Shown: piece after piece, positions 12,468-32,000 of the stretch
Position numbering within the stretch: position 1 is the stretch's first letter
Layout: every line of letters begins with the position of its first letter
Assembly: GCF_000022265.1 (NCBI RefSeq)
Contig: NC_011979.1
Coordinates: 3,150,001-3,182,000 of the forward strand
Reading direction: 5' to 3'
DNA from: Geotalea daltonii FRC-32
GTDB lineage: Bacteria > Desulfobacterota > Desulfuromonadia > Geobacterales > Geobacteraceae
DNA length: 32,000 nt
Position numbers and translations under genes: made by a program
The notes under the pieces: model-generated
The model's database searches: none
Seen by the model: only the letters and a program-made list of their open reading frames with translations
What the model was told of the DNA's origin: nothing

Positions 12468-14306
12468 TCAGTGGAGCAGATTCATGTAATCAAGTGACGA
12501 ATCCCCCACCAGCGGATTCAACGGCAGGAGTATGTGAAAAATGGAACCGGAACCGCTATCTGAATTATACCCTGGAGATTCAACCCATATTTCTCCACCG
12601 TGCATATCGACGATTCCCTTGGCAATAGACAGTCCGAGCCCTGCTCCTTTGGCTTTGAATGCAACTTTGCCGGTGCTGTGCTCTTCGATGTTTCCCGCTT
12701 CATAAAATTTGTCGAATATACGGACCTGATCCTCACGGTCGATGCCGATGCCGGTGTCGGCAACAGCTATTTCTACATATAGGTGGTGTTCCTTGCCTAT
12801 ATTCACTATCGATTGACCCTGGACGCTGTCGGCAGACTGCTTGCTGCGCAGGAGGTATTTCGCGCTTGTGGTCACTGTAATTTCACCACCATCGGGAGTG
12901 AATTTGATTGCATTGCCGAGAACGTTGGAAAAAAGCTGTACGAGCCGAAACATGTCTCCCTTGATTGTAGGAATGCTTTCATCCAGCTGGAGGGTCAATT
13001 TCTGCTTACGCATGGAGAAGAAAAAGGCGAGTTCCTTTACTGCATCCCGTACCAGCTGATTTACATGGACATCATCTATTTTTAGCTGCAGCCTCTTTTC
13101 GTCAATCATGGAGACGTCAACCATATCCTTGATTATATTGTCCAGACGCATGGCAGCACTTGAGATATTTCCCACCATCTCAAGTACCGTGTGATCGACT
13201 TTATCGGCCATGTCCGTGGTAATCAGCTCGGCATACCCCATGATAACCGTCAGAGGAGTTTTGAGTTCGTGGGAGGCCAGACCGAGGAAAGAATCCTTCA
13301 TTTTGTTGAGCCTGACAAGGTCGGCGGCGCTCTTTTCCAGATTCATCATGATTTCCCGTTCTTTGGTTACATCCCGGAATATGGCCTGAACAAGACGGTC
13401 ATTGCCGCTTTCGATGCTGCTGGCATGCAGCCTGGAAACTACCAGTGCCCCACCTTTTTTAACAATCTGCATTTCCTCGGCAATATGCAGCCCCTTGGAA
13501 GCATCTTTGAATATCTTATGTATCTTCGGGATATTTTCTATGTTCAACAGGAGCAGCATCTTTGTCAACGGCAGGCCGACCAGTTCCCGTGCACTGTAAC
13601 CAAAAAACTCTTCAGCCATTTTGTTTACCATTTTCACGGACTCGTCTTCACCTACCACGACAATTGCATCACTGGCGTCCTCCATCAAAGATTTATAAAG
13701 CTCTTCCGATTTCTCCAGCTCATGGCTTAGGTGCTCCAGTTTAAGATACGAGGAATGGAGTTCACTGTGGGTTCTTTCAAGCTCTTGATAGTTTTTCCTG
13801 ATCTCCTCATCACGGTTTTTAAGATATGCGGACATTACATTGATATTTTTAGCCAGTTCATTGAATTCATAAACAGGCACTTCCTGGATCCGCACATCGA
13901 ATCCCCCCTCAGAGATTTGTTTGACGCCCTTAAGCAGAACAGAAACAGGCTGAATGATGCTTTTTTTCATGAAAATCACTACCAGGGAAAAGGAAAATAG
14001 CAGAAAAACCAGCAGCAGAAAGACCGAGCGAAGAATCATACCTTTGACCTTGGCAGATATGATCGATTCCTCAAAACCTATATGGACCTGTGCTGTGGGC
14101 TTTCCATCGGCAGTTTTGACAATTGTTACCGTATCATAAAAAGCGGGATCTTTGCCGACGAGGTTTATCTGAACGGTTGGATTGGATGTGTAGGAACGAC
14201 TCGCTCCCCTGATGGCTAGATTTTGGAATTTGGGGTCACTCAGATATAAAATATTGCCATCCAAGTCGGTTATTATACAATAAGCTATATCTGGATTACC
14301 ATCCAC
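12468..14306 (-). CDS. sensor histidine kinase (TM2-HAMP-PAS-HisKA-HATPase), lacking its own TM1/N-terminus
   Basis: H-box SHELKTPLT, N-box LGNAIKFT, G1 DTGIGI and G2 GAGLGLSIAKG. Also a PAS-like segment (LMEDASDAIVVVGED...) and a TM helix plus HAMP around residues 90-160. The listed start is GTG, and the frame stays open upstream to 14360. Confidence 0.85.
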   Translation of the reverse strand: MDGNPDIAYCIITDLDGNILYLSDPKFQNLAIRGASRSYTSNPTVQINLVGKDPAFYDTVTIVKTADGKPTAQVHIGFEESIISAKVKGMILRSVFLLLVFLLFSFSLVVIFMKKSIIQPVSVLLKGVKQISEGGFDVRIQEVPVYEFNELAKNINVMSAYLKNRDEEIRKNYQELERTHSELHSSYLKLEHLSHELEKSEELYKSLMEDASDAIVVVGEDESVKMVNKMAEEFFGYSARELVGLPLTKMLLLLNIENIPKIHKIFKDASKGLHIAEEMQIVKKGGALVVSRLHASSIESGNDRLVQAIFRDVTKEREIMMNLEKSAADLVRLNKMKDSFLGLASHELKTPLTVIMGYAELITTDMADKVDHTVLEMVGNISSAAMRLDNIIKDMVDVSMIDEKRLQLKIDDVHVNQLVRDAVKELAFFFSMRKQKLTLQLDESIPTIKGDMFRLVQLFSNVLGNAIKFTPDGGEITVTTSAKYLLRSKQSADSVQGQSIVNIGKEHHLYVEIAVADTGIGIDREDQVRIFDKFYEAGNIEEHSTGKVAFKAKGAGLGLSIAKGIVDMHGGEIWVESPGYNSDSGSGSIFHILLPLNPLVGDSSLDYMNLLH

Positions 14307-14335
14307 AAGCTCTCGACATTTCTCGGAAATTCCTG

Positions 14336-14539
14336 CTATATCTCTAATGTCGAGCCCAGGTTAAGGACTTTCTCGATGCTTCCCTTCATAGATGCGCTAA
14401 GGCTCTGTGATCTGAGAAACAGTGCGTTTATATAATCCTTTCTGAATCCGATAATATCCAGACCTGCACTGACTAGAATAGTCAAAAACAGGATCAGAAA
14501 CGAGAAAAGGATAATTCGTTTTTCGAGAGTTCTTTTCAT
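14336..14539 (-). CDS. N-terminal fragment of the same sensor kinase (TM1 plus start of the extracytoplasmic domain), separated by a frame change
   Basis: MKRTLEKRIILFSFLILFLTILVSAGL... is a signal-anchor helix. The ORF stops at TAG 14336-14338. The -1 frame then continues PGLDIRDIAGISEKCRELVDGNPD into the kinase ORF. Confidence 0.6.
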   Translation of the reverse strand: MKRTLEKRIILFSFLILFLTILVSAGLDIIGFRKDYINALFLRSQSLSASMKGSIEKVLNLGSTLEI

Positions 14540-14688
14540 TTTGCTCTGGTTTAGGCTATTTTTAAGCAGAAGCATAATATTACCACAAATGCCTCTGAGA
14601 AAAAGATGAATTTTTTTCAGGGTCTGGCACCTTCCCCATTATTCCTTGTTGATAGTTTTTACATTTTTTGAATTTATTAAATAAAATC

Positions 14689-14717
14689 TTGACCATAGAG
14701 CCTTAATTTGTTAAATA
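14689..14717 (+). promoter_or_regulatory. candidate sigma-70 promoter for gap-pgk-tpiA-secG
   Basis: TTGACC (14689-14694), 17-nt spacer, TAAATA (14712-14717). An AT-rich UP-like tract lies upstream. AGGAGG SD at 14769-14774. Confidence 0.35.
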
Positions 14718-14770
14718 ATTTGAGTTATGAGTAAGTATTTATAAATTACTCTAATTAATCTCTCTACTAG

Positions 14771-15778
<1,008 letters not shown>

Positions 15779-26503: not shown

Positions 26504-26896
26504 TTAGCACCCACAACCGCAATTATGACAGACCTTGCGGTTATGGGCTTCCGGCGCAATGGTTTCAGGGGCAAATGCCACCCTATTCACGGCCCGCTTC
26601 AGATCTTCCATAAGATCAAGGTTGGGACTTTTGTCAATGATGTGCCCGACACATGTATTGCCGATATTGTCGGCAGGTGAGGATATTCTGACGGCGTTAA
26701 GCACATCCGCATAGCTGTTCACGTTAATGACCATCTCATTATTCTGAGCATGCTGTAATTTTATGCCGAATTTCTGCAGATCATCGGTCAACTCAATCAG
26801 GAACATTTGGAAATACGCACAGGAAGTATCTACCTTCCAGTCAGGTCTAATGTGATCCTGCCGGTAAAATGTAATCAATATATCTTTTCCTGCCAT
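26504..26896 (-). CDS. hypothetical protein, 130 aa, C-terminal CHNCGCGC cysteine tail
   Basis: GGTGAGG SD 8 nt before ATG 26896. No signal peptide. Six Cys, four of them in the last 8 residues. Last gene of the conduit operon. I recognise no family. Confidence 0.6.
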   Translation of the reverse strand: MAGKDILITFYRQDHIRPDWKVDTSCAYFQMFLIELTDDLQKFGIKLQHAQNNEMVINVNSYADVLNAVRISSPADNIGNTCVGHIIDKSPNLDLMEDLKRAVNRVAFAPETIAPEAHNRKVCHNCGCGC

Positions 26897-26928
26897 CTAC
26901 AAACCTCACCTTTTGTCGTTTTGTTGTT

Positions 26929-27312
26929 TCAGCTCGCCGCTTTCCTTTGCATGGAGCTGAAGATCATGTTCAGCACGTCTTTTTGCTTGGCTTCATACTT
27001 GTTAAGCACGGCAAGGCATGTCCCCATGGGAAAGTGCTCGTGAAGGTAATCAGCATCCCGGCCAGACAGGATGACAATCCTGTTTTTGTCGATTCCGGCA
27101 TCGGTAGCATATTTGAATATCTTGGCGCCATCCAGCATGGGCATTTCCAGGTCCACCAGCAACAGATCGATCTTTTGCTTCCTGATGGCATTCAAGGCTT
27201 TGACCGGACTGGTACAGGTTTCCACATCTAAAAGTGGATAGTAGGTTTTTATATAATTACCCAGAATATCCAGGAAAGTGGCGTCATCGTCAACTATCAA
27301 AATTTTACCCAT
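26929..27312 (-). CDS. stand-alone response-regulator receiver (CheY-like)
   Basis: MGKILIVDDD acidic pocket, phospho-acceptor in LLLVDLEMP, ILSG, and a later Lys. No output domain. ATG 27312 has an AGAGG SD. The ORF-track TTG 27336 is less likely. Confidence 0.85.
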   Translation of the reverse strand: MGKILIVDDDATFLDILGNYIKTYYPLLDVETCTSPVKALNAIRKQKIDLLLVDLEMPMLDGAKIFKYATDAGIDKNRIVILSGRDADYLHEHFPMGTCLAVLNKYEAKQKDVLNMIFSSMQRKAAS

Positions 27313-27343
27313 TAAAACCTCTGATCCCTTTTGCAACTTTCAA

Positions 27344-28321
27344 TTACTTTACAATCTTGGTCGAAATATTCAACACCTGGATAGGAACATTCAAGTCAAG
27401 CAACTTGGCAGCTTTCAAATTTATCACCAGATCTACTTTTTTCGGTGTCGCCACTGGAATCTGCCCCTGCTTCTTTCCCTGAAGGATAGCTGATACACAT
27501 TCTCCGGCCAGCTGTCCCTGTTCGTAGGTATTAATTTCCAATGTAACCAGAGCACCTTTGTCGGCGGCTTCAGGTACATGGGAAATCACTGGAATACCGT
27601 GATCCCTGGCCCTAAAAATGACTTTTTCCAGGCTGCGAGTCACCAGCGTGCTTTCGGCAGCATAGATAAAATCGACATCCGATGAGGTCAAGGTACCAAG
27701 TGCCGAATCCAGCATATTAGCCGAAGACACATTAAGCTCAACCACCGAAAAACCCATTTGTGCAGCTAGACGTCTTATCTCTTTCAGCTGGATTACGGAA
27801 CCGATTTCCCTTCCATTATACAGAATACCCAGCGATTTGATGTGTTTGATGTCATTGGCTGCTTTTATCAGGGTGATCATTGGAACTTTGGAACTGACAC
27901 CGGTGAGATTTCTGCCGGGAGCAGCCATGCTTCGTGTGACACCGGCTTCAACAGGCCCATAGACATCGACAAAGACAATGGGAATATTATCCACTTCCCG
28001 AATGGCTGCGAGGGTAACCGGCGCTCCATAGGTAATTATGATGTCGGAACCGATGCCGTTGAATTTCCTGATGGTGTTTGCCCAGGAAATGGGGTCAGGG
28101 TTTGGTGTCTGAACGACCAGTTCTACTTTACTCTGGTCAAGGCCCTTCAGTGCCAGAGTTTTCACTAAAGCCCGGTGGGACTCTTTGTAGCGTGTGATAT
28201 CGCTTGTCAGAACTGCCGCAACAAGCTTCCTGCCGGCATATGACGGTAAAACACATGTCAATGACAGTAAAAACAGTATCAGATAAAAACAGCTTCTCAC
28301 AGGCACTCTACCATTTGGCAC
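27344..28321 (-). CDS. periplasmic ABC_sub_bind (PF04392-type) substrate-binding protein
   Basis: Signal peptide (...LTCVLPSYA-GRK). Family-typical blocks: LTGVSS, IKSLGILYN, VDFIYAA, GIPV, GALVTLEI, LAGE...ILQGKK.GQIPV, DLVINLKAAK.L. The start codon is uncertain (GTG 28321, 28306 or 28300). Confidence 0.8.
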   Translation of the reverse strand: MPNGRVPVRSCFYLILFLLSLTCVLPSYAGRKLVAAVLTSDITRYKESHRALVKTLALKGLDQSKVELVVQTPNPDPISWANTIRKFNGIGSDIIITYGAPVTLAAIREVDNIPIVFVDVYGPVEAGVTRSMAAPGRNLTGVSSKVPMITLIKAANDIKHIKSLGILYNGREIGSVIQLKEIRRLAAQMGFSVVELNVSSANMLDSALGTLTSSDVDFIYAAESTLVTRSLEKVIFRARDHGIPVISHVPEAADKGALVTLEINTYEQGQLAGECVSAILQGKKQGQIPVATPKKVDLVINLKAAKLLDLNVPIQVLNISTKIVK

Positions 28322-30413
28322 TCACGTAAGCCGTTATGGAATGAACCGTTCCATCGAATTGGGAATAAAATTTATCATAGTAATCCTGCAACATATATTC
28401 CATCGAGCAGGTCAGGTTTCTGGTAAACCTGTAATTGCCACGGGCAGAAAAGGAGGTCTCAACCGTTTTTGACCGTGAAAGCTCGGTAATACCGCTTGTG
28501 TATCCATAAGGATCAGGAAATGTCTTGTTTTCAGGCTTGAACTCCGAGAGCGAGTGCACCTCCTGCAAGGTCAGGGAAAGATCCGCTTTTTCGGTGAAAC
28601 GATAGGCCGTACCCAAAGAATAAAGATGGGACGCGGACCTGTAATTGGATGCTGCCAGGCTGCCATCTCCGGTTATGGAAAACATCAGTCCCTGATCCAT
28701 ATCGTTTTGCAGGAACCCGTAACTGGCAGTAATGGTAAGTTTTGGGAAAGGGCTGAACCACGCGGCGGTCGTGAAGTTGCGGGTGGTCTTGTCTCTTGAT
28801 AAAAGGGGAGAGAACTGGGCGTATTCAACGGGAGGGGTGGAGGAACTAATAACCCTTCTTTGCATCTCATCATTGAGTTCTCGGCTGTTGCGATAGCTTG
28901 CCGTGAAGCCGAGCCTTCCGGACAGGTTGTAGTTGGAGGTCAATTCTCCTTCATGCTTTTGGGCGAAAGACGTGCCATATGATGGGTGGTCGGTTGAGGT
29001 ATAGCCGTAACGGGCAGTCACCCTGAGTCCCTTCAAGGGACGACTGATAACGGAAATGGACCCCTTGTGGGTACTCTCGTTTTCATTGAGATACCAATTG
29101 AGGGTTTCGTCAAGGTAATGAACCAGGTTGCGATGCAGGAATTCACCTTTGTATTCACCCTTGACCGTAAGTTGGTTGGTGGGACGAAATAACAGGGTCG
29201 CCAGAATTACGTCCTTTTCTGTGCCAATGGAAGGGCGAACAGCCAGGATGTTATTGATAAAAAAGCTATTGGTGATGGTGGAGGGGTTGCGGTTCTCCAC
29301 CTCCTGCCGCCGGTATTTAAACCCTAACGACAGCTCCTTGAACGGCGTATAAACCAGATCACCGGCGTAATTATGCAGATTTGCCGAAGTCTGATCGGCT
29401 CCCGTAGTGTCGTTCAACCGTGACAGGTTGTCCCTCTTGCCGTAGGTATAGGATCCTGCCCCCACAAGGCCGCCTGCCAGTGAAGTGTGTAATTTCACCG
29501 TATGGGCAAAATAACGGCTGTCCGTATCTTCATTATGTTCCTGTATGCCAGACCTGTGAATGCTGCCAAAGACATTGCGCTCGACATAATTATCCCTGAG
29601 TTGTTCGGCTTTATTGATGAACTGCCTGATCTGGAAGTTGTATATCAGGTCGATCGGACCCAGATGAGTATCGAAGCCTATCTTTCCCTCATGTGTCTCA
29701 CGATTTACGGATCTGGATCTGGCAAAGAAGTTGTTCAGCGTCCCTTCAAAGGCAATATCCGCAAAGCGTATCTGACTTGTACCTTCTTTTACCATGCGCC
29801 AGTAGCCCAAGTTCACATGCAGTGGAAAGTCATGGATTTTGTAACGCAGACTGGCCGAATCCTGTTCGGTCTTCAGGCCGTACCCGGTCAGGGAAGAATC
29901 CTGATGGGGAATATAAGCGATACCTGGAAAATCAATCGGCTCGCTAAATAGTATTTCTCCGGTCGTATTGTGAAACAGAGCCTCGGTGCGCAGATGAAAG
30001 CGGTATTCACCGGCATAGTCGAAATTCAGATCGCCGTAATAATCTTTGTCGTTAAGATAGTTACCGTCCAGGGTAAATTTAAGGTCCTGCCCCAGCCTGT
30101 TGTAACTGGCACCGCCAATAATACCTGAATGCAGATAATTGTATTTGGAAGCGCGTCCGCCATAGTTGTCGATGGTCAGAAATCTGTATCCGGTGTATCC
30201 CTCCAGCAAAGAATGGGTCTCTGCAGCTTTTGCAGGAAATGCCTCTTGCAGCAGGGCTTCATCCAGCTCCGATAATTCGGAGCCGTCAGCAAGGTGGTTT
30301 TCTGTCTCGGTCGAAGTATCTGGTTTCTCCGAAGCCAAAGCATTGATAACCGAGAGATTAAACACAACTAATGCTGCCGCAAGCAAACAGGTCAATCTTA
30401 AGAGCTTTATCAC
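28308..30413 (-). CDS. large outer-membrane beta-barrel protein, MtrB/PioB-like (decaheme-associated porin)
   Basis: About 700 aa. AAGGAG SD 7 nt before GTG 30413 gives signal peptide MIKLLRLTCLLAAALVVFNLSVINALA-SE. Dozens of alternating-hydrophobicity strands (LTITASYGF, YSLGTAYRF, FSARGNYRF). C-terminal aromatic ...YVSAKW. The size and the position directly after an MtrA-type cytochrome match MtrB/PioB/MtoB. Confidence 0.65.
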   Translation of the reverse strand: MIKLLRLTCLLAAALVVFNLSVINALASEKPDTSTETENHLADGSELSELDEALLQEAFPAKAAETHSLLEGYTGYRFLTIDNYGGRASKYNYLHSGIIGGASYNRLGQDLKFTLDGNYLNDKDYYGDLNFDYAGEYRFHLRTEALFHNTTGEILFSEPIDFPGIAYIPHQDSSLTGYGLKTEQDSASLRYKIHDFPLHVNLGYWRMVKEGTSQIRFADIAFEGTLNNFFARSRSVNRETHEGKIGFDTHLGPIDLIYNFQIRQFINKAEQLRDNYVERNVFGSIHRSGIQEHNEDTDSRYFAHTVKLHTSLAGGLVGAGSYTYGKRDNLSRLNDTTGADQTSANLHNYAGDLVYTPFKELSLGFKYRRQEVENRNPSTITNSFFINNILAVRPSIGTEKDVILATLLFRPTNQLTVKGEYKGEFLHRNLVHYLDETLNWYLNENESTHKGSISVISRPLKGLRVTARYGYTSTDHPSYGTSFAQKHEGELTSNYNLSGRLGFTASYRNSRELNDEMQRRVISSSTPPVEYAQFSPLLSRDKTTRNFTTAAWFSPFPKLTITASYGFLQNDMDQGLMFSITGDGSLAASNYRSASHLYSLGTAYRFTEKADLSLTLQEVHSLSEFKPENKTFPDPYGYTSGITELSRSKTVETSFSARGNYRFTRNLTCSMEYMLQDYYDKFYSQFDGTVHSITAYVSAKW

Positions 30414-30448
30414 CAGCAATCTCCTTCTGCGCAAACGGAACGGTTTTT

Positions 30449-31444
30449 TTACTGACGCATTGTGCCCAGGCCGGTTACACCAGTTGACGGAATATCACTT
30501 CCATGAATCTGTGAATGGCAATCCGTGCAGCGATTGGAAAAGAGCTGTTTTGTTCCAGTGGTTCCGGCCATATGACCTGCATGGCACTGCAGGCAAAGAA
30601 ATGGCATCGTTGTATTCAGAAGCTGGTTGTTGGTTGACCCGTGGGGGGAATGGCAATTGGTGCAATTCTCAGTGACATCGCCATGCTCGAAGACGAAGGG
30701 ACCCTGTTTCTCCATGTGGCATTTCGTGCATGTTTCCTTTGGAGTATCGCCTTTAAGGAGGCTTTCCTGTGTGGACCCGTGGACATCATGACAGTCGGCA
30801 CAGGCCATCTTTTTCTCCACCAGGGGGTGATGTGAATACAAGTTGTTTTCAATTCTTACCTGTGGATGGCAGCCATAGCATAACTCAGCCATCTCTTCAT
30901 GCTTGACTTTCTGCTGTGGCCCCTGATGCAGCTTATGGCAATCAAGGCAACTCACGTCACTCAATGCGTGGGCACTGGCATTCCAGTGGGCCAGGGTCGG
31001 GATGGAAGCTGCGGAATGGCATTTAAGGCAGATAAGTGACTGGGCCTGGGCGGGGAGGTTCAGAATATCGAGGAATGTCTTGGAATCGCATTTTGTTTTC
31101 CTGGCGTCGTTCAATTCAGGGTCTTCAGGAAGGTCCATTATGGCAAGGCTTCCCGGACCATGGCAAGATTCGCAGTTGACCAGCGGCAGTCCTGTTCCCG
31201 GTTTTATCTGCTCACCATGGACGCTGTGCCGGAAATCGTCGGTTATCTTGTCATGGGCATGGCATTTGGCAACGCAATTGTCGGTTCCCACATAATCCGC
31301 ATCAAACCTGCCGACGATCATTCTTTCATAGTCAGAAACCGGCAGAAGCGGTTTTGTCTGCTTCAGCTGGGAACAGGCTGCCGACAGCACAGCAACAGCC
31401 ACGGCAATGAAAACACGGCACAGCATTCCCCTGTTGACTGTCAT
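30449..31444 (-). CDS. decaheme c-type cytochrome, MtrA/DmsE/PioA/MtoA family
   Basis: 331 aa with ten CxxCH motifs: CVAKCH, CESCH, CLKCH, CLDCH, CYGCH, CADCH, CTKCH, CTNCH, CLQCH, CTDCH. Signal peptide present. Collinear with S. oneidensis MtrA as I recall it (333 aa, 10 hemes), for example SHHPL...CADCHDVHGS and EKQGPFVFEHGDVTENCTNCHSPHGS...LCLQCHA. Confidence 0.88.
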   Translation of the reverse strand: MTVNRGMLCRVFIAVAVAVLSAACSQLKQTKPLLPVSDYERMIVGRFDADYVGTDNCVAKCHAHDKITDDFRHSVHGEQIKPGTGLPLVNCESCHGPGSLAIMDLPEDPELNDARKTKCDSKTFLDILNLPAQAQSLICLKCHSAASIPTLAHWNASAHALSDVSCLDCHKLHQGPQQKVKHEEMAELCYGCHPQVRIENNLYSHHPLVEKKMACADCHDVHGSTQESLLKGDTPKETCTKCHMEKQGPFVFEHGDVTENCTNCHSPHGSTNNQLLNTTMPFLCLQCHAGHMAGTTGTKQLFSNRCTDCHSQIHGSDIPSTGVTGLGTMRQ

Positions 31445-32000
31445 CTAATCCCCTCGTATTCCCTTTGTTGTCGTGTAGATGAAACCCTTTACGATCGGAT
31501 TCTCGCTCTTTTTGATCTGTGCCGGAGAGCCTACCTCGATAATCTTGCCTCCATGCATCATGGCAATACGGTCTGAAATGTAGAGTGCAAAATTCAAATC
31601 ATGGGTGACTATAACGGTCGTATTTTTAGTAGTTTCCTTGAGTTTCAAAATAGTATTGGCAAGCTCGTCCGTAGTTACCGGGTCCAGCTCTGCAGTGGGC
31701 TCGTCATAAAGTATCAGATCAGGGTTCATGGCCAGGGAACGGGCAATGGCAACCCTTTTTTTCATCCCCCCCGAAAGTTCGGAGGTCCTCAAATTTTCCG
31801 TGTCCTGCAGGCCTACCTTTTCCAGTTTTTCAGTTATGATCTGCCTGATCCTCACTTCCTTGCAGATGCGCTTTTCGCGCAACCAAAGACCGACGTTTTC
31901 GCCAACTGTCAGTGAATTAAAGAGCGCAGAAGACTGAAAGACCATGCTGTAGCGGTAGTCTCTGATGGAGTTGTTTTTAATCCTGTTGAAAATGGGATTG
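31445..32000 (-). CDS. ABC transporter ATP-binding protein, MlaF-like; 5' end off the window
   Basis: Q-loop MVFQSSALF, signature LSGGMKKRVAIAR, Walker B LILYDEPTAELD, H-loop VTHD, and a C-terminal NPIVKGFI like MlaF (DPRVRQFL). The frame is open to position 32000 (…NPIFNRIKNNSIRDYRYS-MVFQ). Confidence 0.85.
   Translation of the reverse strand, partial: NPIFNRIKNNSIRDYRYSMVFQSSALFNSLTVGENVGLWLREKRICKEVRIRQIITEKLEKVGLQDTENLRTSELSGGMKKRVAIARSLAMNPDLILYDEPTAELDPVTTDELANTILKLKETTKNTTVIVTHDLNFALYISDRIAMMHGGKIIEVGSPAQIKKSENPIVKGFIYTTTKGIRGD

What the first reader, a model, noticed from the sequence alone, without database searches (positions are those of the whole stretch)
26504..32000. Six-gene operon linking an MtrAB-type porin-cytochrome conduit to an ABC ATPase, a periplasmic binding protein, a receiver domain and a Cys-tailed orphan
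All six genes are on the minus strand and tightly packed.
- The ATPase stop abuts the cytochrome start (TAG then ATG, 0 nt).
- The cytochrome-to-barrel gap is 35 nt to the SD-supported GTG.
- The barrel stop overlaps or abuts the binding-protein start.
- The binding-protein-to-receiver gap is 31 nt, and the receiver-to-orphan gap is 32 nt.

The electron-conduit loci I know are mtrCAB/omcA, mtrDEF, dmsEFAB, pioABC, mtoAB(+cymA/mtoD) and Geobacter ombB-omaB-omcB. They pair the porin and periplasmic cytochrome with extracellular cytochromes, terminal reductases or HiPIP-type carriers. None pairs them with an Mla-type ATPase, a PF04392 binding protein or a CheY-like receiver.

So this may be an undescribed variant of extracellular electron transfer. 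Possibilities are a regulated or sensing conduit, or a conduit coupled to envelope transport. The rest of the window is housekeeping, which makes this block stand out.
Basis: partly seen in the sequence, partly recalled or inferred. Interest (0 to 1): 0.85.

Follow-up and report, generated by a model that had tools for sequence, protein, structure and literature searches.

The report
Outer-membrane electron conduit with binding-protein partner
In Geotalea (Geobacter) daltonii, a two-protein wire that carries electrons across the outer membrane is always encoded next to a periplasmic binding protein and signalling genes, so it may act as an environmental sensor as well as a respiratory exit.

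Summary
The window is Geotalea daltonii FRC-32, genes Geob_2908 to Geob_2913: six tightly packed minus-strand genes.

- **Cytochrome:** a DmsE/MtrA-family decaheme lipoprotein.
- **Barrel:** its predicted fold matches MtrB best.
- **ATPase:** MlaF-type.
- **Binding protein:** PF04392.
- **Receiver:** intact.
- **Orphan:** a narrow family with an invariant C-terminal CHNCGCGC.

The 10 kb recovered upstream holds no MlaE or MlaD.

About 90 related loci fall into three layouts.

- **Geobacteraceae:** ATPase, cytochrome, barrel, binding protein, receiver, orphan.
- **Desulfuromonadales:** MlaE, MlaF, MlaD with a helical needle, then cytochrome, barrel, binding protein.
- **A third clade:** cytochrome, barrel, binding protein, then a methyl-accepting chemotaxis protein, with no ATPase.

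The conserved core is therefore cytochrome, barrel and binding protein. The ATPase is a relic of an ancestral MCE transporter. The variable partners are signalling proteins.

My best reading is an MtrAB-type conduit whose binding-protein partner feeds chemotaxis or response-regulator signalling. The conduit part rests on homology. The sensing part is inferred from gene neighbourhood only.

A 2024 survey already noted the ABC genes beside these conduits in one sentence. It did not report the chemoreceptor layout or the Mla ancestry. I class this as a new variant of a known kind, interest about 0.6.

The parts
31445..32000 (-). 3' two-thirds of the MlaF-type ABC ATPase Geob_2913. The full gene is 276 aa and runs past the window end; it is L001 9170-10000.
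   Evidence: PF00005. The best solved relatives are A. baumannii MlaF (7d06_B, 6z5u_K, 6ic4_I) and the Mce ATPase 8fed_G. It is 65-68% identical to ATPases that sit between MlaE and MlaD in Desulfuromonadales loci. Walker A, the signature motif and Walker B are intact in 34 of 34 orthologues, and the H-loop in 33 of 34. With a median identity of 80%, it is the most conserved gene of the block.
30449..31444 (-). Decaheme c-type lipoprotein cytochrome Geob_2912, 331 aa, of MtrA/DmsE type.
   Evidence: TIGR03508 scores 274 bits against a cut-off of 192. PDB 6r2q_A (MtrA) matches at E 8e-43. It carries 9 CXXCH motifs plus one CX3CH (CVAKCH), giving 10 heme sites, and has a signal peptide ending in a lipobox-like Cys. 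GenBank names it 'lipoprotein cytochrome c, 10 heme-binding sites'.
28308..30413 (-). Outer-membrane beta-barrel Geob_2911, 701 aa from the GTG start, MtrB-like.
   Evidence: The AlphaFold2 model has pLDDT 79 and is an all-beta barrel with roughly 26-29 long strands. Its best PDB match is 6r2q_B MtrB at E 4e-19 and TM 0.62/0.67; the next hits are TonB-dependent barrels at TM about 0.36. The protein itself has no PF11854 or TIGR03509 hit, only 78 bits to NF041027 (GSU2204 family). Orthologues do carry PF11854.
27344..28300 (-). Periplasmic PF04392 binding protein Geob_2910, 318 aa. Alternative starts are at 28306 and 28321; RefSeq calls a 273-aa version.
   Evidence: PF04392 scores 156 bits. 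TrpX NF041285 scores 145 bits, below its 390 cut-off. Its solved relatives are 3lkv, 6hni and 3lft. It follows the barrel directly in all three locus layouts.
26929..27312 (-). Single-domain response-regulator receiver Geob_2909, 127 aa.
   Evidence: PF00072 scores 51.5 bits against a cut-off of 30.2. The DDD motif at residues 8-10, the DLEMP aspartate and the NKY lysine are conserved in 32 orthologues. It occurs only in the Geobacteraceae layout.
26504..26896 (-). Orphan Geob_2908, 130 aa, cytoplasmic, with an invariant C-terminal CHNCGCGC.
   Evidence: No Pfam or NCBIfam hit. It has 1097 close homologues, the 120 listed almost all 130 aa. Only 21 clusters at 50% identity exist among 1.84 billion representatives. 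The AlphaFold2 model has pLDDT 86 and an alpha/beta fold with a disordered tail. Structural matches are only weak and thioredoxin-fold-like, all with E above 0.04. C82, G84, H85 and residues 123-130 are invariant.

Best explanation
The block encodes a Desulfuromonadia-specific version of the MtrAB/MtoAB two-protein outer-membrane electron conduit. A lipoprotein decaheme cytochrome (Geob_2912) is threaded through an MtrB-like barrel (Geob_2911). No MtrC-type surface cytochrome is encoded nearby.

The conduit's near-constant genomic partner is a periplasmic PF04392 binding protein (Geob_2910). The variable partners are signalling proteins: a CheY-like receiver plus a small Cys-tailed protein in Geobacteraceae, and a methyl-accepting chemotaxis protein in another clade.

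**Working model.**
1. The cytochrome-barrel pair exchanges electrons with an extracellular redox-active substrate. This step is inferred from homology to MtrAB.
2. The binding protein works on the periplasmic side of the conduit. It either docks on it or captures a small, possibly aromatic or redox-active, ligand that the conduit produces or admits. This step is inferred.
3. The binding protein passes that information to a chemoreceptor or to a phosphorelay that ends in the receiver. The cell can then steer or regulate itself according to what the conduit 'sees' outside. This step is inferred from gene neighbourhood only.

The ATPase (Geob_2913) is what remains of an ancestral MlaE-MlaF-MlaD(needle) MCE transporter. 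That transporter is still complete at the same position in Desulfuromonadales. In Geobacteraceae the ATPase is intact and strongly conserved, so it presumably works with a membrane partner encoded elsewhere, or with the adjacent 145-aa and 33-aa membrane proteins. It is not essential to the conduit module.
For: **Conduit identity.**
- TIGR03508 is passed above its cut-off.
- MtrA is the only solved sequence relative.
- MtrB is by far the best structural match of the barrel model.
- The cytochrome has 10 heme sites.

**Operon-like packing.** Gaps of 0-35 nt and Shine-Dalgarno-like sites are seen. There are no internal terminator or promoter signals above background.

**The binding protein is the core partner.** It follows the barrel in 55 of 55 Geobacteraceae-type loci with room and in 8 of 8 Desulfuromonadales-type loci from the two scans. 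It also follows it in five further Desulfuromonadales-type loci and in six third-type loci. The barrel-to-binding-protein junctions range from overlaps to about 85 nt, although the barrels of the other two layouts are only 26-29% identical to the G. daltonii barrel.

**Signalling link.** Six loci (L076, L087, L092, L094, L095, L096) have cytochrome, barrel, binding protein, then an MCP with HAMP and MCPsignal domains. The gaps are 30-67 nt, or the gene calls overlap. Barrels of five of these loci are 39-53% identical to the L076 barrel. In Geobacteraceae the same position holds an intact receiver.

**The ATPase is a relic.** MlaE (PF02405) and MlaD (PF02470, with a Helical_needle match) flank its 65-68% identical orthologue in Desulfuromonadales. 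Both are absent from every Geobacteraceae locus and from the recovered upstream DNA. The third layout has no ATPase at all.

**Precedent.** In Shewanella, mtrBC/omcA and an MCP are both required for congregation around insoluble electron acceptors (PMC5789149).
Against: - No experiment bears on this locus. I found no paper that names Geob_2908 to Geob_2913.
- The sensing step rests only on gene order.
- The Desulfuromonadales layout has the binding protein but no signalling gene. One locus (L090) has cytochrome and barrel with neither binding protein nor MCP.
- Wider synteny is also conserved within Geobacteraceae: the unrelated Metallophos and S49 genes are kept too. Adjacency inside that family is therefore weak evidence on its own.
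- The three solved PF04392 proteins bind L-Trp, L-Tyr or L-Phe (PMC10443332). The binding protein could simply be an amino-acid binder.
- No kinase is encoded next to the receiver.
- The barrel fails the sequence models for MtrB/PioB.
Confidence: 0.5

Rival explanations
1. Purely respiratory conduit with hitch-hiking neighbours. Geob_2911 and Geob_2912 are one more Fe(III)- or electrode-reducing porin-cytochrome pair. The ATPase is the cell's housekeeping MlaF, separated from MlaE and MlaD by rearrangement. The binding protein, receiver and orphan are unrelated genes kept adjacent by vertical inheritance.
For: - Synteny in Geobacteraceae extends to clearly unrelated genes such as Metallophos_2 and the S49 peptidase. 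Parts of the wider region are shared even with Trichloromonas.
- The ATPase is a typical MlaF by its solved relatives.
- OmcI (GSU1228), placed in the same homologous group by PMC11492766, is reported to affect growth on Fe(III) citrate and Fe oxides when deleted (PMC9248073 citing Aklujkar 2013).
- D. acetexigens MtrA and MtrB homologues are expressed on electrodes (PMC12133095).
Against: - The binding protein stays directly after the barrel in three layouts whose other flanks differ completely. The upstream genes are the HDAC block in two layouts and Rrf2 or sulfur-assimilation genes in the third; the downstream genes are a convergent Mem_trans gene, an MCP, or the receiver. Several junctions overlap.
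- No locus carries the permease genes a transport binding protein would need.
- The ATPase-to-cytochrome junction is 0-9 nt in Geotalea and Geomonas.
Confidence: 0.25
2. Reductive metal-uptake system, as suggested in PMC11492766. The conduit reduces or solubilises an extracellular metal. The binding protein captures it in the periplasm. An ABC importer powered by Geob_2913 brings it in. The Cys-tailed orphan receives it as a cytoplasmic metallochaperone.
For: - The 2024 survey proposes uptake of metals on the basis of the ABC annotations.
- The orphan's invariant CHNCGCGC tail contains a CxxCGC motif. From my own knowledge, that is the pattern of the high-affinity Ni site at the N-terminus of E. 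coli HypB. It also has an invariant C-G-H at residues 82-85.
- An Rrf2-family (iron-dependent regulator) gene precedes the third layout.
Against: - The ATPase is MlaF-type. Its orthologues pair with MlaE and an MCE protein, not with binding-protein-dependent permeases.
- No permease is present in any of the roughly 90 loci.
- The third layout has the binding protein but no ATPase.
- The Desulfuromonadales layout has no orphan.
- The three solved PF04392 proteins bind aromatic amino acids, not metals.
- The binding protein has no CXXCH motif; other metal-binding motifs were not examined.
Confidence: 0.12
3. Envelope-transport coupling. An MCE tunnel (MlaE, MlaF and MlaD with a periplasm-spanning helical needle) delivers a hydrophobic molecule, such as a lipid, quinone or cofactor, to or from the outer-membrane conduit. 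Geobacteraceae keep a reduced form of this machine built from the ATPase and the small membrane proteins.
For: - In 13 Desulfuromonadales-type loci, MlaE, MlaF and MlaD sit directly upstream of the cytochrome. The five loci with Pfam gene calls were checked for a needle domain, and MlaD showed a Helical_needle (PF28544) match in four of them, L086, L088, L089 and L091.
- The ATPase stays fused to the cytochrome gene start in G. daltonii and is the most conserved gene of the block.
- A 145-aa four-helix membrane protein and a 33-aa membrane ORF are conserved just upstream.
Against: - The 145-aa protein shows no relation to MlaE (hhalign probability 0.1%).
- No MCE protein exists in any Geobacteraceae locus.
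- The third layout works without any ABC component.
- MlaD-to-cytochrome gaps in Desulfuromonadales are about 85-300 nt, longer than the other junctions.
Confidence: 0.1

Closest known systems
MtrAB of Shewanella (structure 6R2Q), within MtrCAB
   Same: A decaheme periplasmic cytochrome is encoded directly upstream of a large outer-membrane barrel. The cytochrome is a TIGR03508 member and matches 6R2Q_A at E 8e-43. The barrel model matches 6R2Q_B best.
   Different: - No MtrC/OmcA-type surface cytochrome appeared among the genes identified in the 21-kb locus L001 (10 kb on either side of the cytochrome gene).
- The cytochrome is a predicted lipoprotein and its first heme site is CX3CH.
- The barrel fails PF11854 and TIGR03509.
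- It has a constant PF04392 neighbour, which Mtr loci lack to my knowledge.
MtoAB and PioAB, the two-component conduits of Fe(II) oxidisers
   Same: They are cytochrome-plus-barrel pairs without an extracellular cytochrome partner in the operon.
   Different: From my own knowledge, those loci add CymA/MtoD or the HiPIP PioC. This one adds a binding protein, a receiver, an orphan and an MlaF relic. The direction of electron flow here is unknown.
GSU2203 (OmcK) and GSU2204 pair, and OmcI (GSU1228), of Geobacter sulfurreducens
   Same: - They belong to related families. The cytochrome scores 245 bits on NF041028 and the barrel 78 bits on NF041027.
- GSU2204-family barrels are MtrB/PioB-like and carry a CXXCH motif. 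Most Desulfuromonadales-type and third-type barrels found here do as well.
- PMC11492766 groups OmcI with DmsE, MtoA and MtrA.
   Different: - Both scores are below the family cut-offs of 325 and 350, so this is not a member.
- The G. daltonii barrel has no CXXCH.
- Orthology to OmcI could not be tested, because no G. sulfurreducens sequence was reachable.
MlaFEDB and needle-bearing MCE transporters such as PqiB
   Same: The ATPase's closest solved relatives are MlaF chains. Its orthologues sit between MlaE and an MlaD that has a Helical_needle match.
   Different: In G. daltonii and all Geobacteraceae loci, the permease and the MCE protein are missing from the locus.
Binding-protein-mediated chemoreception (for example maltose-binding protein with Tar, or PstS with CtpL)
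   Same: A periplasmic binding-protein gene lies directly upstream of an MCP gene in six loci. Binding proteins that stimulate chemoreceptors are established (PMC8050422 abstract; PMC10443332).
   Different: The binding protein here is welded to an electron conduit instead of a transporter. No ligand is known. In G. daltonii the MCP is replaced by a stand-alone receiver.
Shewanella 'congregation' (energy taxis) around insoluble electron acceptors
   Same: It requires both Mtr outer-membrane components and an MCP (PMC5789149). That is a functional link between a conduit and taxis.
   Different: As listed in that paper's abstract, the Shewanella genes carry locus tags that are not adjacent (SO_1776-1779 and SO_2240), and no binding protein is mentioned. 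Here conduit, binding protein and MCP form one gene cluster.

Membership tests
MtrAB/MtoAB/PioAB porin-cytochrome conduit | Periplasmic decaheme cytochrome of the DmsE/MtrA family | tested here: met
   TIGR03508 scores 274 bits against a cut-off of 192. There are 10 heme sites, 9 CXXCH plus 1 CX3CH. 6r2q_A matches at E 8e-43.
MtrAB/MtoAB/PioAB porin-cytochrome conduit | Adjacent MtrB/PioB-family outer-membrane barrel, judged by sequence models PF11854 and TIGR03509 | tested here: not met
   The G. daltonii protein has no hit at E below 0.01 to either model. Many orthologues do carry PF11854. One relative, L040, scores 32.6 bits on TIGR03509, far below the 240 cut-off.
MtrAB/MtoAB/PioAB porin-cytochrome conduit | MtrB-like large barrel fold able to sheathe the cytochrome | tested here: met
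   The AlphaFold2 model (pLDDT 79) matches 6r2q_B best at E 4e-19 and TM 0.62/0.67. The next hits have TM about 0.36. Threading of the cytochrome through the barrel was not modelled.
MtrAB/MtoAB/PioAB porin-cytochrome conduit | [quoted passage not shown] | not testable with these tools
   This needs proteoliposome or genetic assays.
MtrCAB (three-component) | MtrC/OmcA-type extracellular decaheme cytochrome in the cluster | tested here: not met
   No second multiheme gene appears among the genes called in L001 or in the window.
GSU2203/GSU2204 family (NF041028 / NF041027) | Scores above the NCBIfam cut-offs; CXXCH (or selenocysteine) site in the barrel | tested here: not met
   The scores are 245 against 325 and 78 against 350. 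The Geobacteraceae barrels have no CXXCH.
Mla/MCE ABC transporter | MlaF-type nucleotide-binding subunit | tested here: met
   The best solved relatives are MlaF chains and MceG. The ATPase is orthologous (65-68% identical) to ATPases flanked by MlaE and MlaD. All nucleotide-binding motifs are intact. NF008809 MlaF scores 125 bits, below its equivalog cut-off of 441, on the window fragment.
Mla/MCE ABC transporter | MlaE permease (PF02405) and MCE protein (PF02470) in the operon | tested here: not met
   Both are absent from the window, from 10 kb upstream and from all Geobacteraceae loci. The 145-aa neighbour is unrelated to MlaE. The rest of the genome could not be searched.
PF04392 binding-protein-dependent ABC importer (TrpX type) | PF04392 binding protein | tested here: met
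   156 bits against a cut-off of 25.9.
PF04392 binding-protein-dependent ABC importer (TrpX type) | TrpX equivalog score and cognate permease genes nearby | tested here: not met
   NF041285 scores 145 bits against 390. No permease was seen at the conduit cluster in any locus examined.
Two-component or chemotaxis signalling | Receiver domain with the phospho-acceptor pocket | tested here: met
   PF00072 scores 51.5 bits. The conserved acidic pair, the aspartate of DLEMP and the lysine of NKY are present.
Two-component or chemotaxis signalling | Cognate kinase or chemoreceptor in the same cluster | tested here: not met
   G. daltonii has none between 26504 and the recovered upstream end. An MCP occupies this position in six third-type loci.
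Geobacter Pcc/Ext porin-cytochrome clusters (OmbB-OmaB-OmcB, ExtABCD and others) | Octaheme periplasmic cytochrome, porin and surface multiheme lipoprotein | tested here: not met
   The cytochrome here is an MtrA-type decaheme and no surface cytochrome gene is present. The definition of Pcc is taken from the PMC4245776 abstract.

The most novel reading that the evidence does not exclude
The cytochrome-barrel pair is the input module of a trans-envelope sensor, not primarily a respiratory exit. A molecular wire samples the redox state or nature of extracellular minerals or electrodes. A dedicated periplasmic binding protein then relays that reading to a chemoreceptor (in Desulfuromonas-type loci) or to a CheY-like receiver and a Cys-tailed partner (in Geobacteraceae). 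This would give these bacteria a hard-wired 'electron-acceptor sense'.
Probability: 0.3. Interest if true: 0.85.

Novelty: new variant of a known kind. Interest (0 to 1): 0.6.

Why it matters
How metal-respiring bacteria find and recognise insoluble electron acceptors is an old open question. From my own knowledge, Geobacter chemotaxis towards Fe(II) was reported in 2002. Shewanella needs both Mtr proteins and an MCP to congregate at minerals (PMC5789149).

A conduit that is genetically welded to a binding protein and then to an MCP or a receiver provides a small, defined gene set in which to test that link. The candidates are Geob_2908 to Geob_2913 here and the four-gene cassette in Desulfuromonas.

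The result also corrects how these loci are read. The 'ABC transporter' annotations do not add up to a transporter. The ATPase is a relic of an MCE system, and the binding protein has no permease. The published suggestion of metal uptake is therefore not the best-supported reading.

If the neighbours prove irrelevant, the locus is still a widespread, uncharacterised MtrAB-type conduit family of Geobacteraceae and Desulfuromonadales.

Tried and rejected
- **Promoter and terminator scans** over L001 5000-15600 found 16 promoter-like and 10 terminator-like sites. Shuffles gave 13.6 and 10.0, so the scans say nothing about the operon.
- **Rfam** at E up to 1 over the same stretch found nothing, so there is no GEMM or other riboswitch.
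- **A sigma-54 consensus search** between the TPR gene and the ATPase in 31 loci found nothing.
- **Is the 145-aa membrane protein a degenerate MlaE?** Rejected: hhalign probability 0.1%.
- **Orphan fold search against the PDB** gave no significant match. Only thioredoxin-fold-like hits appeared, all with E above 0.04, so I do not claim a fold family.
- **Literature searches** for Geob_2910 to Geob_2913 and GSU1225 to GSU1231 returned no papers.
- **The supplements of PMC12133095** held as text do not list the neighbours of the D. acetexigens MtrAB genes, nor G. daltonii. No supplements of PMC11492766 are held.
- **Orthology to G. sulfurreducens OmcI (GSU1228)** could not be tested. The single genome scan was pattern-limited and did not return G. 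sulfurreducens.
- **A neighbour-joining tree of barrels** did not separate the Desulfuromonadales and third layouts cleanly. I make no claim on whether they are orthologues or paralogues.
- **The apparent 446-aa ORF upstream of the L076 cytochrome** is an Arg/Pro-rich wrong-frame artefact of high-GC DNA.

Full report
**1. Observation**

I read the junctions directly.
- The ATPase stop TAG abuts the cytochrome ATG.
- 35 nt separate the cytochrome stop from a GTG preceded by GAAGGAGA.
- The barrel stop lies 7 nt before the called binding-protein start, or overlaps it if the upstream GTG at 28321 is used.
- 31 nt and 32 nt separate the last three genes, each with a purine-rich ribosome-binding site.
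- A convergent Metallophos_2 gene ends 6 nt from the orphan's stop and closes the unit.

Consensus promoter and terminator scans give no more sites than shuffled sequence, and none in the junctions. No Rfam family matches.

An exact protein look-up identifies the source as Geotalea (Geobacter) daltonii FRC-32. The genes are Geob_2908 (orphan) to Geob_2913 (ATPase). The rest of the window is housekeeping.

**2. What each gene is**

*Cytochrome (331 aa).* It passes the DmsE-family decaheme model TIGR03508 (274 bits, cut-off 192). Its only solved sequence relative is MtrA of the Shewanella baltica Mtr complex, 6R2Q chain A (E 8e-43). It has nine CXXCH motifs plus one CX3CH (CVAKCH). It also has a signal peptide ending in a lipobox-like cysteine that is kept in all orthologues.

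*Barrel (701 aa).* It has no Pfam hit of its own and fails TIGR03509, although many orthologues carry PF11854. An AlphaFold2 model from 25 homologues (pLDDT 79) is an all-beta barrel. Its best PDB match by a wide margin is MtrB, 6R2Q chain B (E 4e-19, TM 0.62/0.67). The next hits are 22-strand TonB-dependent transporters at TM about 0.36.

*ATPase.* It has intact Walker A, signature, Walker B and H-loop motifs. Its best solved relatives are Acinetobacter MlaF chains and the mycobacterial Mce ATPase.

*Binding protein.* It is PF04392 (156 bits) but scores far below the TrpX equivalog cut-off. The three solved PF04392 proteins bind L-Trp, L-Tyr or L-Phe.

*Receiver.* It keeps the acidic pocket, the phospho-acceptor aspartate and the conserved lysine.

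*Orphan.*
- It has no family assignment.
- It has 1097 close homologues, the 120 listed almost all 130 aa, but only 21 clusters at 50% identity among 1.84 billion representatives.
- Its model is confident (pLDDT 86): an alpha/beta fold with a disordered tail.
- It gives only non-significant, thioredoxin-fold-like structural hits.
- C82, G84, H85 and the last eight residues, CHNCGCGC, are invariant.
- From my own knowledge, CxxCGC is the pattern of the high-affinity nickel site of E. coli HypB. That is a lead, not a test.

**3. Upstream DNA**

A metagenome contig identical to the window supplied 10 kb beyond position 32000 (L001). Upstream of the ATPase there is no MlaE and no MlaD. Reading upstream from the ATPase, the genes are:
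- a 145-aa membrane protein with about four hydrophobic segments (Geob_2914), unrelated to MlaE;
- a conserved 33-aa membrane ORF, probably Geob_2915;
- after a 125-731 nt gap to the 145-aa gene, within which the 33-aa ORF lies, three overlapping genes: a histone-deacetylase-family protein, a 280-aa protein without a family, and a TPR protein.

**4. Comparative genomics**

I collected related loci in four ways: a scan of one genome per species with a barrel alignment, a metagenome scan, a homologue search with a divergent barrel, and twelve context look-ups in all, eleven of them for relatives. Together these give about 90 related loci. tblastn and Pfam sort them into three layouts.

*Layout B (Geobacteraceae).* It occurs in Geotalea, Geomonas, Geobacter sp. 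AOG1, G. argillaceus, Geomobilimonas, Geoanaerobacter and Geomesophilobacter. The order is HDAC, h280, TPR, 33-aa ORF, 145-aa protein, ATPase, cytochrome, barrel, binding protein, receiver, orphan. Where the contig leaves room:
- the ATPase is present in 54 of 54 loci;
- the binding protein in 55 of 55;
- the receiver in 51 of 51;
- the orphan in 49 of 51.

*Layout A (Desulfuromonadales).* It occurs in Desulfuromonas versatilis, Trichloromonas and several MAGs, 13 loci in all. The order is HDAC, h276, TPR, a small ORF, a 49x-aa secreted repeat protein, MlaE, MlaF, MlaD, cytochrome, barrel, binding protein, then a convergent gene. MlaD has a C-terminal repeat region that gave a Helical_needle Pfam match in four of the five loci with Pfam gene calls. 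There is no receiver and no orphan.

*Layout C.* It occurs in six loci, one named Desulfuromonas sp., whose barrels are 39-53% identical to the L076 barrel. The order is cytochrome, barrel, binding protein, then a roughly 790-aa methyl-accepting chemotaxis protein (HAMP plus MCPsignal). An Rrf2 regulator often precedes it. Junctions are 2-67 nt or overlap. There is no ABC component.

One further locus (L090) has only Rrf2, cytochrome and barrel.

Between layouts A and B the ATPase is 65-68% identical, the cytochrome 55-60%, the binding protein 38-43% and the barrel 26-29%. Three conclusions follow.
- Cytochrome, barrel and binding protein form the conserved core.
- The ATPase of G. daltonii is the orthologue of a genuine MlaF. 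Its permease and MCE partners were lost from the locus in the Geobacteraceae lineage. It remains the most conserved gene of the block, at 80% median identity.
- The position after the binding protein is filled by signalling proteins in two of the three layouts.

**5. Literature**

- No paper in the library names Geob_2910 to Geob_2913.
- PMC11492766 (BMC Genomics 2024) reports DmsE/MtoA/MtrA/OmcI homologues in Desulfuromonadia next to MtrB/PioB-like genes. [quoted passage not shown] The adjacency is therefore already on record. The receiver, the orphan, the Mla ancestry and the chemoreceptor layout are not mentioned there.
- OmcI (GSU1228) deletion is reported to affect growth on Fe(III). I could not test whether it is the orthologue.
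- GSU2203 (OmcK) and GSU2204 form a related but distinct pair.

**6. Mechanism**

*Shown by homology and structure prediction:* an MtrAB-type cytochrome-in-barrel conduit without an MtrC partner, resembling MtoAB and PioAB in composition.

*Inferred from conserved, tightly coupled gene order across layouts whose other flanks differ:* the binding protein works with the conduit.

*Inferred from the MCP in layout C and the receiver in layout B:* the binding protein's output is signalling, that is, taxis or regulation in response to what the conduit encounters. Shewanella offers a functional precedent, because Mtr components and an MCP are both needed for congregation at insoluble acceptors.

I rate the conduit assignment at about 0.9, the conduit-binding-protein partnership at about 0.55 to 0.6, and the sensing output at about 0.3 to 0.35.

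The rivals are set out with their evidence in the rival section:
- a purely respiratory conduit with hitch-hiking neighbours (0.25);
- reductive metal uptake, as the 2024 paper suggests (0.12);
- an MCE tunnel coupled to the conduit (0.10).

The metal-uptake reading is weakened for three reasons. MlaF-type ATPases pair with MlaE and MCE proteins, not with binding-protein-dependent permeases. No permease occurs in any locus. Layout C has the binding protein without any ATPase.

**7. Novelty and verdict**

The thing itself is a member of a known kind, an MtrAB-type porin-cytochrome conduit. It has a conserved accessory set that no characterised conduit has. Part of the adjacency was noted in 2024.

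To my knowledge and within the library searched, three points are new:
- the binding protein as the constant partner;
- the chemoreceptor-linked layout;
- the origin of the ATPase as an MCE-transporter relic.

I class it as a new variant of a known kind, with interest 0.6. It is not categorically new, and it rests on neighbourhood evidence. It does yield a compact, testable gene set for the question of how metal reducers sense extracellular electron acceptors.

Noticed in passing
L001 8544-8645 (upstream of the window; between Geob_2916 and Geob_2914): A 33-aa single-helix membrane ORF (MFGFSSGDWLFIALVMVTIFACVAISDMNRKNK) is conserved in Geobacteraceae loci that cover this position and weakly in one Desulfuromonadales locus. 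It is probably Geob_2915. Gene callers listed 44-46-aa ORFs at the same place in D. versatilis and relatives.
   Followed up: partly
L001 5600-8536 (upstream of the window): Three overlapping genes, a histone-deacetylase-family protein, a 280-aa protein with no family, and a cytoplasmic TPR protein, precede the conduit module in both the Geobacteraceae and the Desulfuromonadales layouts, but not in the chemoreceptor layout. Their link to the conduit is unexplained.
   Followed up: partly
L042 9854-11914 and other barrels of the Desulfuromonadales and chemoreceptor layouts (about residue 180-235): Most of these barrels carry one CXXCH heme-binding motif inside the barrel protein, as the GSU2204 family does. 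All Geobacteraceae barrels, including the one in the window, lack it. The barrel alignment also has several invariant histidines (H148, H199, H250, H293).
   Followed up: partly
window 31264-31281 (minus strand; cytochrome residues 55-60): The first heme site of the cytochrome is CX3CH (CVAKCH) rather than CXXCH. The Trichloromonas orthologue has the same pattern (CLGKCH).
   Followed up: partly
L042 7496-8584; L086 6795-7883: The MlaD-like protein of Desulfuromonadales has one MCE domain followed by about five 21-residue repeats (GSLGRLVND..LY). These gave a weak or faint Helical_needle (PF28544) match in four of the five loci with Pfam gene calls, which suggests a periplasm-spanning tube encoded next to the conduit.
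   Followed up: partly
L042 4424-5902; L086 3641-5128: A secreted protein of about 490 aa, rich in repeated WP[LF]F-type motifs and with no Pfam or NCBIfam match, precedes MlaE in every Desulfuromonadales-type locus that extends far enough upstream.
   Followed up: no
window 27344-28321: Start-site ambiguity for the binding protein. There are three in-frame GTGs, at 28321, 28306 and 28300. GenBank has 318 aa and RefSeq 273 aa.
   Followed up: no
L020 6609-7016: L020 (Geomonas limicola) has an extra 135-aa ORF between the 33-aa ORF and the 145-aa membrane protein. It looked CoA-binding-like by eye but was not scanned. The other Geomonas loci have a similarly enlarged gap. The mem145-to-ATPase gap is up to 489 nt there.
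   Followed up: no
L012 8187-9492: One Geobacteraceae MAG lacks the orphan and the Metallophos_2 gene. There the receiver is followed directly by the S49 peptidase gene.
   Followed up: no
window 14307-14779: The lowest-GC stretch of the window is the 1-kb composition bin at 14001-15000 (0.395). It covers the 473-nt divergent intergenic region between a sensor histidine kinase (minus strand) and gap-pgk-tpi-secG (plus strand).
   Followed up: no
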